From contig NW_024704742.1 in assembly GCF_018977255.1 (NCBI RefSeq), forward strand, positions 41,230,001 through 41,294,000: a stretch of DNA of 64,000 nt. The letters are read 5' to 3'. Shown here in pieces: positions 18,001 through 20,609 of the stretch (position 1 is the stretch's first letter; the number at the start of each line of letters is the position of its first letter). Made by a program: the position numbers. The stretch comes from Callorhinchus milii. Lineage: Eukaryota.

Positions 18001-20609
18001 GCTGCTCGTTGCTCACCACAATGAGTGCCCTCACCCGTCTGCGCCACCTCGAGCCCCCACAGCCTCCTGCAGGCTGACAATATCCCACTAATCTGCTGCC
18101 TTTCATCCCAGAGCGCGCATCTTGGCTGCCGCCCCCAACCCGAGTTGGCCCTCCCTCAAAATGCCCCCCTCCCTGCATCTCTTCCACTCTGTCCTGCTCT
18201 CTTTCTGCCCTCCCCGCCTCCCATCTCTGCTTGACCCCCTCACAGGCGAGACACCTGGGTTCAATTCCCAGCAGGGCGAAACCTTGGGCAAGTTTCCTTA
18301 CTCCACACACCTAATAATAATCCCTCCAAAATAAAAAACAATAATAAATTGGTCATTTTCAATCTACGACTGTTTGTGCGACGCTGCTGGTAAAGTATTT
18401 AAGATTCAAATCAGGTTCTCTCTTCTCTGATCAAGTGGTGTCAATAGATCTTTAAGGTCCACCTGAACAGGCAGACGGGACCTTTAACAGCTCATCCCAA
18501 ACACAGCACCTCTGACAATACAATGGTCCCTATCCAGCATTTTCAGAAATACTTTACCTGAGTACATACATGTTATGATCTCCATGTTGAGTGTGACATA
18601 TTTTGAAGACACGTTTAAGCATTCATTGAATTAGAAGTTACTGAGTAAAGAAAGGTTGGGGGGGAAGGGGCAATAAGGGTGGTACTTATGAATGAAAACT
18701 GAAAAGAAATTTTTCACTTGTTTTCAAAATGCAATTTGTTGCTAAATTTCTCTCACTGAAATATTGCACAGGAATAAAAAGGCAGCAACATTCTTGGGGA
18801 ACTGTCTCTTGTTCAGTTTCTCCAACTTCCTTAAGCTTGAGTGAGGAGGAGGAGGAGGAGGAGAAGGAGGAGAAGAAGCAGAGTCTTGAGAAAAACTCAG
18901 GTCACTATTGTATCCCTTGCTGTTCTCAACCCAATCGCGGGAAGGTTTAGACAGAGAAACGCACTGAGGAGCTGAGCATGACGACTGGTTATCCAAAGTC
19001 TCAAAGGCTTTGTTGAGGATCCCGCAATATGAACATTTCAGAGGGAGATTATTGGAACTCGATACTGTGAATATCCCTTGAATCATCCCCACTTCCCCAT
19101 CCATTTCACCATGTTTCCGATAAAGGGATTCAATTACAAACATAATCTGTAGGTATTTCTCAGTGATGACCAGGACAGAGAATGACAAGTTCAGCCTATT
19201 GTGAGGGGACTGTGTTTCCCCACAAATAGCAGCCATGATGGAACACCAGGATATAAACCAAGAGGCGCATGCTGTGCGCACCAGCAGATTGCCATCCAAC
19301 TTCCTGGTGGGGTTTTTGCAATAATCCAGGGATCTTTTGTCAACTCTATAAAAGACCAGGCCGGCTGCAGCTGCTGCAGACATTAAGCAAAGCACCGTGA
19401 TACCGTATAGAGAAAGCATAACTACAGCTGACACTCGTTGCTTTGTTGAATGTCCCACCTGTGAGCTGTACACAATGAGAATCCCAGCATTGCAGTTCCC
19501 AGAACTGGACCTATCATTAGACTGTAGGTCCTAAAGGTAACTTTCAGAGCTCTGTGCTCTTCCAGGGAGCGCCCAAAAGTTCTTCCACATAACGTAAAGC
19601 ATGGCAGATGCAAAGACGTGGAACTCAATGTTGAACGGGTACATATAATGGGAACTGTTGTAGAAAATAGCGCAGGCATTTGTATTGCAGCTGCAATTTG
19701 GTCCAATGTCACCTACAAAGAAATGGAATGAAGCATTAACTTGAGATTGGGCCCTAGATTACTTGGTAACAAAAGTCTACTTACTGTTGGCATCCTTAAA
19801 ATATCATTGTAAATTCCTGTTTAGTTTTGGTAGGTACTTTGTAATAACCCTTCATGTCCCTATTCAAATGCATTTTCAAGTCATTTTGCAATTGCATTGC
19901 AATTTTTGTTTCCAAAATGAGTGCCTTTTCACATCAAAACATCCTTCAGATGTGAAAAACACTACATAAATGTAAATTATATTCAATCATAAAACATCTG
20001 AAAGCACTTCACAGGTAATTGCTGTCAAGCGTAGTTCGTCATTTACAGCAGCAAGATCCCAAAGGCTGGCATGGGAAAAATAGCTAATCTATGTGGGACA
20101 GCTAGTTAAACACAACAGCAAGCGGTTTTGGGCCCAACATTTTCACAAAGTCAGGGCAGGGAAGAGGGGGAGTTTACCTAATGAGCTAATCCACTGGGAT
20201 ATTTCCAGGAGCAGACTATCTGTCAATGTAATATTGATAACCCTTCTAATTACGACACTGAAAATCACATTCTCTCCATATTTCTATTTTTCTTTGATTC
20301 TTCATACAAAGACACCCCACTCATTAAAAGAACATCTACTTTATTCACTCTGTGGTTGTCTGGGACATTGCTTTGCGTAGAATTGTCACCTACAAAACAG
20401 TGACTTTACAGTATATTCTGCAAAGCGCTTTGGGATGTCCTCCTGACATTAAAGTTGTTAGACCATTTGTAAGGATTAATATTATCTATGTTAGTTAGGA
20501 TTAACACACTTTATTCCCAATTGAATCTCCAAATTTTTGGTCATTGGAAGACATCTATCATGAAATGGTTAAGGCTAATGTTGAGGCAATGGAAAAGATC
20601 CCCAAATGA

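What the first reader, a model, noticed from the sequence alone, without database searches (positions are those of the whole stretch)
18757..19712. Otopetrin (OTOP1-like) relic between QDPR and CLRN2
Seen: a 956-nt exon with intact splice sites and clear otopetrin motifs (YPFNIEF, WKN, RKLD, AAFLFLCNIS). It has a 1-nt insertion near 19578 and an approximately 13-nt deletion near 19483; these restore frame overall but leave a TAG at 19531. I could not find the other exons in the window. Known: human OTOP1 (otoconia formation, sour-taste proton channel) is not adjacent to QDPR, and CLRN2 is a hair-cell gene. Inference: a separate OTOP1-type paralog sat head-to-head with CLRN2 here and has decayed in this lineage.
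Basis: partly seen in the sequence, partly recalled or inferred. Interest (0 to 1): 0.65.

Follow-up and report, generated by a model that had tools for sequence, protein, structure and literature searches.

The report
Dead copy of one OTOP1 exon
This is a broken, stand-alone copy of the largest exon of the elephant shark's own OTOP1 proton-channel gene, lying between QDPR and CLRN2; it is an ordinary pseudogene fragment and not the remains of a lost extra otopetrin gene.

Summary
A 956-nt otopetrin exon lies on the minus strand at 19712-18757. It has an AG acceptor and a GTGAGA donor. It carries one extra base in a T run (19578-19575), a net loss of 13 nt near 19487, and a TAG at 19533-19531 in the shifted stretch.

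The window is from Callorhinchus milii: clarin-2 exon 1 is 100% identical. The gene order is QDPR(-), this exon(-), CLRN2(+), LAP3(+), MED28(+).

The interpretation needs changing. The exon's closest relative is C. milii's own intact OTOP1 (XP_007895535.1, 614 aa). That gene sits on a contig of the same length as clarin-2's. The exon matches parent residues 236-558, with 281 of 317 aligned residues identical. In a tree the two pair at 100/100 support, inside the OTOP1 clade.

Since the split, the window copy made 23 of the 28 replacements whose direction could be inferred. These fall on conserved and variable sites alike. No other OTOP1 exon is in the 64 kb.

It is most likely an unprocessed pseudogene fragment that never functioned. 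Interest is low.

The parts
18757..19712 (-). OTOP1-derived pseudo-exon (956 nt), matching residues 236-558 of C. milii OTOP1 (XP_007895535.1, P0254)
   Evidence: Pfam PF03189. OTOP1 profile E 1e-69, 1e-22 and 0.0044 for the three pieces. tblastn with P0254 gives E 9e-163. 281 of 317 aligned residues are identical to the parent.
19713..19714 (-). AG of the splice acceptor (tttctttgtAG|GT), after a pyrimidine-rich tract
   Evidence: Read directly from the sequence. The exon begins with the last two bases of a split codon.
18751..18756 (-). Splice donor GTGAGA directly after ...CNIS. Read-through gives VREI and then a stop.
   Evidence: The parent's exon ends at the same residue (CNIS|FWIL in P0254). 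An Ensembl isoform of the parent (P0219) reads CNIS-VREI. This suggests the first 12 intron bases were copied too.
19575..19578 (-). TTTT run holding one extra base, the first frameshift. It comes after WKN, where the parent has V.
   Evidence: Three-frame reading and alignment to 21 OTOP1 proteins. The profile match moves to another frame here.
19488..19577 (-). Shifted stretch (30 codons) that still encodes the TM6-TM7 linker and the start of TM7 in the ancestral frame (FGRSLEEHRALKVTFRTYSLMIGPVLGTAM)
   Evidence: OTOP1 profile positions 278-312, E 0.0044. Residue-by-residue match to the parent.
19531..19533 (-). TAG stop met when the shifted stretch is read in the exon's outer frame
19486..19487 (-). 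Second frameshift. Two leftover bases mark a net loss of 13 nt: four TM7 residues (SVLA in the parent) plus one base.
   Evidence: Whether this was one 13-nt loss or a 12-nt plus a 1-nt loss cannot be told without the parent's DNA.
18390..20402 (.). Block that is unique within the window and contains the pseudo-exon. It is the largest plausible extent of the copied DNA (inference only).
   Evidence: Self-comparison. It is bounded by a truncated SINE at 18243-18389 (90.7% to other copies) and an older SINE piece at 20403-20488 (77%).
15040..15130 (-). Context: QDPR exon 1. QDPR runs from here towards lower coordinates, with further exons near 12118-11825 and 4565-4338.
   Evidence: ORF listing. 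Matches to solved dihydropteridine reductases, E 4e-06 and 1.6e-14.
30281..33876 (+). Context: CLRN2, three exons (about 30281-30533, 32632-32820, 33610-33876)
   Evidence: Exon 1 is 100% identical to clarin-2 [Callorhinchus milii]. All three exons are found by tblastn with P0180. Pfam Clarin-2.

Best explanation
The feature is an unprocessed pseudogene fragment. A piece of genomic DNA carrying the largest coding exon of Callorhinchus milii OTOP1, with short bits of its flanking introns, was copied to the QDPR-CLRN2 intergenic region of what is apparently the same chromosome. This happened after holocephalans split from sharks and rays.

The copy has no promoter, no start codon, no exons 1-4 and no last exon, so it could not encode a 12-helix otopetrin channel. 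It has drifted without selection since. It collected about 23-31 amino-acid replacements, one +1 frameshift and a net 13-nt loss. It does nothing as a protein.

**Shown:**
- homology to the parent gene and the sister relationship;
- the lopsided, conservation-blind pattern of replacements;
- the frameshifts;
- the absence of other exons in 64 kb.

**Inferred:**
- that only a fragment was ever copied;
- that the copying was DNA-based;
- its age, roughly tens of millions of years. This takes 3-4.5% nucleotide change on the copy's branch and assumes a neutral rate of 0.5-1 x 10^-9 per site per year. I did not measure that rate.
For: 1. **Species and map.**
- Clarin-2 exon 1 is 100% identical to C. 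milii clarin-2.
- QDPR, LAP3 and MED28 are confirmed.

2. **Parent gene.**
- C. milii OTOP1 isoforms P0219 and P0254 are the best hits.
- P0254 (XP_007895535.1) is listed on a contig of 139,202,109 bp, the same length as clarin-2's contig.

3. **Identity.**
- 281 of 317 aligned residues are identical, 88.6%.
- The best elasmobranch OTOP1 reaches 54%.

4. **Tree.**
- In a tree of 34 rows, the window exon and C. milii OTOP1 pair at 100/100.
- That pair is sister to 12 elasmobranch OTOP1 at 100/98, inside an OTOP1 clade at 100/100.
- End branches are 0.10 for the copy and 0.0047 for the parent.

5. **Relaxed constraint.**
- Of the 36 differences, 23 are window-derived, 5 parent-derived and 8 could not be polarised (binomial p 0.0009).
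- Of 72 columns invariant in the outgroups, 6 changed only in the window copy and 0 only in the parent.
- Window-derived changes sit on columns of average conservation: mean entropy 1.04 against 1.01 for all 282 columns, permutation P 0.43.
- Three pairs of working elasmobranch orthologues differ mostly at variable columns. Their mean entropy is 1.64-1.77, with 0-2 of 45-56 differences at invariant columns.

6. **No other exon.**
- tblastn with P0254 gives one significant match, residues 234-558. The other 199 listed matches are weak or low-complexity.
- Searches agree.

7. **DNA-level copy.**
- Both splice sites are kept, and the intron start reads VREI as in parent isoform P0219.

8. **Compatible with neutrality.**
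- 31-43 random substitutions give 23-31 replacements.
- They leave the frame free of stops in 20-35% of simulations.
Against: - **Parent DNA unseen.** No vertebrate genome collection was available. The extent of the copied block, the synonymous divergence and the distance to the parent are therefore unknown.
- **Few disabling changes.** The exon has no stop in the ancestral frame and only two indels in 956 nt. This fits neutrality, but it would also fit a short period of constraint.
- **Gaps in the search.** A 131-N run (16987-17117) and about 1.3 kb of CT-rich low-complexity DNA lie between the exon and QDPR, so a small remnant there could be hidden. Exons far outside the window cannot be excluded.
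- **No expression data.**
Confidence: 0.8

Rival explanations
1. A whole OTOP1 gene was duplicated beside CLRN2, as with the Otop1a/Otop1b pair of Xenopus tropicalis. It worked for a time and then decayed. Deletions and transposon insertions removed every exon but this one.
For: - The exon keeps both splice sites and has few disabling changes.
- Extra Otop1 copies exist in X. tropicalis (PMC3038909, section 6).
- The 10.5 kb up to CLRN2 holds SINE and LINE insertions that could have displaced exons.
Against: - No trace of the other five coding exons appears in 64 kb, although about 89% identity would be expected.
- Replacements since the split ignore conservation, so there is no sign of a constrained period.
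- The parent's end branch is very short, 0.0047 against 0.10 for the copy. That leaves little time for a working phase followed by complete loss of all other exons.
Confidence: 0.1
2. The exon belongs to a working second otopetrin gene. The two indels would be assembly errors, and the other exons would lie outside the window or be too diverged to see.
For: - 262 codons are open downstream of the TAG, and both splice sites are good.
- A one-base error in a T run is a known kind of sequencing slip.
Against: - A 13-nt loss is not a typical sequencing error.
- Six residues invariant in 15 other OTOP1 proteins are changed, for example W to R and N to I.
- The replacement pattern is conservation-blind.
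- QDPR exon 1 lies 3.6 kb downstream and CLRN2 10.5 kb upstream, with no further otopetrin exon between them.
- No database protein of 186 aa or more includes this exon.
Confidence: 0.03
3. The fragment has been taken over for a use that does not encode otopetrin. Examples would be an upstream alternative exon or regulatory element of QDPR, which lies 3.6 kb downstream on the same strand, or part of a non-coding RNA.
For: It has the same orientation as QDPR, sits just upstream of QDPR's first exon, and keeps usable splice signals.
Against: No evidence of any kind. There were no expression data and no cross-species conservation to examine. The neutral replacement pattern argues against selection on the peptide.
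Confidence: 0.04
4. Assembly artefact: a diverged read or contig of the OTOP1 region was placed wrongly between QDPR and CLRN2.
For: An N run lies 1.6 kb away (16987-17117), and the region is rich in repeats.
Against: - The copy differs from the parent at 36 of 317 residues and by two indels. That is far beyond allelic or error-level difference.
- It would therefore exist somewhere in the genome as a separate sequence in any case.
Confidence: 0.03

Closest known systems
Callorhinchus milii OTOP1 (RefSeq XP_007895535.1, 614 aa; Ensembl/UniProt isoforms A0A4W3JE50, A0A4W3K823, A0A4W3JR64)
   Same: - The window exon matches residues 236-558, with 281 of 317 aligned residues identical.
- Both end at the same exon boundary, CNIS.
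- They share lineage-specific motifs, and are sister at 100/100 support in the tree.
- The two contigs have the same length.
   Different: - The parent is a complete protein of 614 aa. The window has one exon only.
- The window copy carries a +1 shift, a net -13 nt loss and an in-frame TAG in the shifted stretch.
- It carries 23 derived replacements, 6 of them at sites invariant in the 15 other OTOP1 proteins used as outgroups.
- It sits between QDPR and CLRN2.
Vertebrate OTOP1 proton channels (solved: zebrafish OTOP1, PDB 6NF4)
   Same: - The window's 258-aa open stretch matches 6nf4_A residues 319-480 at E 1.9e-29.
- Pfam Otopetrin matches.
- It falls in the OTOP1 clade, apart from OTOP2 and OTOP3.
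   Different: It covers only about half of the 12-helix protein and has no continuous reading frame, so no channel can be made.
Xenopus tropicalis Otop1a/Otop1b tandem duplicates (Hurle et al. 2011, PMC3038909)
   Same: A lineage-specific extra copy of OTOP1 sequence.
   Different: - The Xenopus copies are two complete genes side by side between Tmem128 and Drd5. [quoted passage not shown]
- Here a single exon lies at a different locus and is disabled.
Unprocessed (duplicated) pseudogene fragments, a general class in vertebrate genomes (from my own knowledge)
   Same: - A copy of genomic DNA that keeps its splice sites and intron flanks.
- Only part of the parent gene is present.
- Frameshifts are present.
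- The replacement pattern is neutral.
   Different: Nothing that I could find.

Membership tests
Otopetrin family (Pfam PF03189) | Significant match to the otopetrin domain profile | tested here: met
   Pfam scores are 31.0 and 27.5 bits for the two open stretches, against a cut-off of 27.8. The OTOP1 profile gives E 1.1e-69, 1.4e-22 and 0.0044.
Otopetrin family (Pfam PF03189) | Complete 12-transmembrane-helix protein from an uninterrupted reading frame | tested here: not met
   Only parent residues 236-558 are present. There are two frameshifts and a TAG. No start codon context and no N- or C-terminal exons were found.
OTOP1 subfamily | Groups with OTOP1 and not with OTOP2 or OTOP3 in a tree | tested here: met
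   The OTOP1 clade of 25 rows has 100/100 support. The window exon is sister to C. milii OTOP1 at 100/100.
OTOP1 orthologue (the species' own OTOP1 gene) | Usual OTOP1 neighbourhood (Tmem128 and Drd5 flanks) and being the species' intact copy | tested here: not met
   The flanks are QDPR and CLRN2. The intact OTOP1 is a different sequence, P0254. The usual flanks are taken from PMC3038909, section 6.
   It branches with C. milii OTOP1 after a shared stem of 0.22, inside chondrichthyan OTOP1.
Unprocessed pseudogene fragment | Parent gene in the same genome, exon-intron boundaries kept, and disabling mutations | tested here: met
Unprocessed pseudogene fragment | Evolution without protein-level constraint | tested here: met
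   23 window-derived against 5 parent-derived replacements. Window-derived changes are blind to conservation, permutation P 0.43, unlike working orthologue pairs.
Processed (retrocopied) pseudogene | Intron-less copy of the spliced mRNA, with neighbouring exons fused and a poly-A tail | tested here: not met
   One exon only, bounded by an acceptor and a donor, with intron-like sequence beyond. Neighbouring exons are not fused to it.

The most novel reading that the evidence does not exclude
The holocephalan lineage briefly had a second, complete OTOP1 gene head-to-head with the hair-cell gene CLRN2. This exon would be its last remnant, so other chimaeras may still carry a working or better-preserved copy at this site. 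A variant of this reading is that the fragment survives because it is spliced into transcripts starting upstream of QDPR.
Probability: 0.1. Interest if true: 0.4.

Novelty: new member of a known kind. Interest (0 to 1): 0.15.

Why it matters
It matters little beyond annotation.

- **Annotation:** the exon should be marked as an OTOP1 pseudogene fragment in C. milii, so that it is not mistaken for a fourth otopetrin or for evidence of an ancestral OTOP-CLRN2 linkage.
- **Method:** the apparent deep divergence (42-46%) came from a length filter that hid the true parent.
- **Possible use:** if the fragment is shared with other chimaeras, it could serve as a datable insertion marker and as a small sample of neutral evolution in a very slowly evolving genome.

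Tried and rejected
1. **First homologue search, 186-594 aa.** The best hits were elasmobranch OTOP1 at 42-46%, which at first looked like an old, separate paralog. I rejected that once the search of longer proteins found C. milii's own OTOP1 of 598-614 aa.

2. **Search of cluster representatives.** This gave 66 hits, none above 45% over most of the query's length. It was uninformative here because clusters are collapsed at 50% identity, so the parent was hidden behind another representative.

3. **Candidate further exons from weak matches.**
- Minus strand 48952-48833 (profile E 0.7).
- Minus strand 8413-8345 (tblastn E 2-9).
- Minus strand 42144-42034.
- I rejected all three. They are not significant. 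The 8413-8345 match lies inside an ORF (8431-8093) among LINE-derived ORFs in the QDPR intron. The much closer parent protein does not hit any of them well.

4. **A small intron removing the shifted stretch.** I rejected this because the stretch still encodes OTOP1 residues in the ancestral frame.

5. **The block was inserted into a SINE, splitting it.** The pieces at 18243-18389 and 20403-20485 are in the right order and orientation. However, they are 90.7% and 77% identical to the family, and other old fragments lie nearby. This is not supported and remains open.

6. **Literature.** No paper holds 'Callorhinchus' with 'otopetrin' or 'elephant shark' with 'OTOP1'. One paper holds 'OTOP1', 'pseudogene' and 'cartilaginous', a review of bitter taste receptors. 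I saw only its search listing.

- I could not search the C. milii assembly or other vertebrate genomes.
- Raw reads and RNA-seq were not available.
- The only genome collection offered holds bacteria and archaea, so I did not use it.
- I did not consult paper supplements.
- I searched the flanking genes exon by exon and made no joined spliced models.

Full report
**What is there**

On the minus strand, 19712-18757, lies a 956-nt stretch bounded by a good acceptor (tttctttgtAG) and a good donor (GTGAGA). Its translation matches Pfam Otopetrin in both open parts, at 31.0 and 27.5 bits against a cut-off of 27.8.

I built a profile from 21 named OTOP1 proteins. It matches three consecutive pieces in two frames:
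- 19758-19534 matches profile positions 234-279, E 1.4e-22.
- A second frame within 19712-19425 matches positions 278-312, E 0.0044.
- 19530-18745 matches positions 314-537, E 1.1e-69.

Reading the three frames against the OTOP1 alignment shows two frameshifts. The first is one extra base in the TTTT run at 19578-19575, directly after WKN. The second is a net loss of 13 nt near 19486-19487, where four residues of helix 7 and one base are missing. The shifts cancel. However, the stretch between them, read in the outer frame, contains a TAG at 19533-19531.

**Where it is**

CLRN2 exon 1 (30281-30529, plus strand) is 100% identical to clarin-2 of Callorhinchus milii. tblastn with that protein finds all three exons. 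The window is therefore elephant shark, not human.

- QDPR lies on the minus strand, with exon 1 near 15130-15040 and further exons at lower coordinates. These match solved dihydropteridine reductases.
- LAP3 (plus strand, last exon 48999-49268) matches leucine aminopeptidase.
- MED28 follows.

The order is QDPR(-), otopetrin exon(-), CLRN2(+), LAP3(+), MED28(+). The exon is 3.6 kb upstream of QDPR exon 1 and 10.5 kb from the CLRN2 start codon. I searched the flanking genes exon by exon and made no joined spliced models.

**What it is related to**

My first search was limited to proteins of 186-594 aa. It gave elasmobranch OTOP1 at 42-46% identity as the best hits, which would have fitted an old, separate paralog.

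The search of longer proteins changed the picture. The best hit is Otopetrin 1 of C. milii itself, at 72% over the whole read-through including the shifted part. The next best is Heptranchias OTOP1 at 54%.

The cluster of that C. milii protein holds RefSeq XP_007895535.1 (614 aa). It is listed on a contig of 139,202,109 bp, the same length as the contig of C. milii clarin-2. So the parent gene and this window are apparently on one chromosome.

Aligned piece by piece, the window exon covers parent residues 236-558, with 281 of 317 aligned residues identical, or 88.6%. It ends at the same exon boundary, CNIS. One Ensembl isoform of the parent reads on past that boundary as VREI, exactly as the window does. 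This suggests that intron sequence was copied along with the exon.

I built a maximum-likelihood tree of 34 rows: the window exon, 24 OTOP1 proteins and 9 OTOP2/OTOP3 proteins as outgroup.
- The window exon and C. milii OTOP1 pair at 100/100 support.
- That pair is sister to 12 elasmobranch OTOP1 at 100/98.
- All lie inside an OTOP1 clade at 100/100.
- End branches are 0.10 for the window copy and 0.0047 for the parent.

**Is it, or was it, a gene?**

tblastn with the parent protein, using permissive settings, gives one significant match in the 64 kb: residues 234-558, E 9e-163. The other 199 listed matches are weak, mostly against the parent's proline/serine-rich stretch. The earlier tblastn and profile scans agree. 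At about 89% identity the other five coding exons would be plain to see, so they are absent from the window.

The replacements since the split are lopsided. Of the 36 differences, 23 are window-derived, 5 parent-derived and 8 could not be polarised (binomial p 0.0009). Of 72 columns invariant in the outgroups, 6 changed only in the window copy and none only in the parent.

The window-derived changes also ignore conservation. Their mean column entropy is 1.04, against 1.01 for all 282 columns (permutation P 0.43). Three pairs of working elasmobranch orthologues differ mainly at variable columns. Their mean entropy is 1.64-1.77, with 0-2 of 45-56 differences at invariant columns.

A simulation shows that 31-43 random substitutions give 23-31 replacements and leave the frame stop-free in 20-35% of runs. 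The absence of a nonsense codon in the ancestral frame is therefore no argument for constraint.

**Best reading**

A DNA-level copy of one OTOP1 exon, with a little flanking intron, landed between QDPR and CLRN2 in the holocephalan lineage. It has drifted neutrally since. It is an unprocessed pseudogene fragment that most likely never functioned.

The block that is unique within the window runs from 18390 to 20402. It is bounded by a truncated SINE (18243-18389) and an older SINE piece (20403-20488). I cannot fix the true limits of the copy without the parent locus. The idea that the block split a single SINE is not supported, because the two pieces differ greatly in divergence (90.7% against 77%).

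The age is a rough inference of tens of millions of years, and it rests on an assumed neutral rate.

**Rivals**

- **Whole-gene duplicate that lost all other exons.** This cannot be excluded, but nothing supports it.
- **Working gene with assembly errors.** Unlikely, given the 13-nt loss, the changes at invariant residues and the lack of room for other exons.
- **Take-over into QDPR transcripts.** Untested.
- **Assembly artefact.** The divergence from the parent shows that the sequence is a separate locus wherever it lies.

**Compared with what is known**

Otop1 is flanked by Tmem128 and Drd5 in 20 of 25 vertebrates, and X. tropicalis has two complete tandem Otop1 genes (PMC3038909; I read the outline and section 6). 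For the other otopetrin papers listed I saw only the search listing.

I found no paper that mentions otopetrin in Callorhinchus. One review holds 'OTOP1', 'pseudogene' and 'cartilaginous'; I saw only its listing. I did not consult supplements.

**What stayed unchecked**

- the parent locus DNA;
- the distance between the two copies;
- dN/dS;
- raw reads;
- RNA-seq;
- the same interval in other cartilaginous fishes.

**Verdict**

This is an ordinary pseudogene fragment of low interest.

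Noticed in passing
window 36556-39499: About 3 kb of G+C-rich tandem repeats between CLRN2 and LAP3. There is a 12-nt unit GGCCGAGCCTGG in 131 copies (36556-38129), a 17-nt unit in 43 copies (38272-39026), and GT-rich repeats (39202-39499). A single N sits at 36052.
   Followed up: partly
window 51239-52459 and 52971-53291: A 44-nt tandem repeat in 27.8 copies at 94% match, and a related 47/91-nt array, just after the first coding exon of MED28.
   Followed up: no
window 769-1091, 28624-28948, 39863-40050, 50501-50825, 53675-53904, 55305-55595, 56603-56927: A SINE family of about 325 nt with young copies (92-98% identical to each other). 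Many older fragments of its 3' part, at 70-88%, are scattered through the window.
   Followed up: partly
window 6415-7587 (+) and 8093-10033 (-): LINE remains inside a QDPR intron. One ORF has a reverse-transcriptase domain (Pfam RVT_1, E 2.6e-24). An opposite-strand ORF has a weak endonuclease/exonuclease/phosphatase match (E 0.0024, below the cut-off).
   Followed up: partly
window 61860-63347 (+): A 496-codon open frame downstream of MED28 with no Pfam match. It is probably a large exon of the next gene. Not identified.
   Followed up: partly
window 16551-17833, with the N run at 16987-17117: CT/GA-rich low-complexity DNA of about 1.3 kb, with a 131-N run, lies between the QDPR promoter side and the pseudo-exon. 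The N run was left as it is.
   Followed up: no
proteins P0219, P0255, P0256 (UniProt isoforms of C. milii OTOP1): The Ensembl-derived isoforms differ from RefSeq P0254. Two lack 26 residues that both RefSeq and the window copy have. Two carry an odd segment (YYLIMTIVDLHT) before the last exon, and one of these also reads VREI past the exon end. These look like alternative or faulty splice models of the parent gene.
   Followed up: partly
The two genes seem to share a chromosome across cartilaginous fishes.
   Followed up: no
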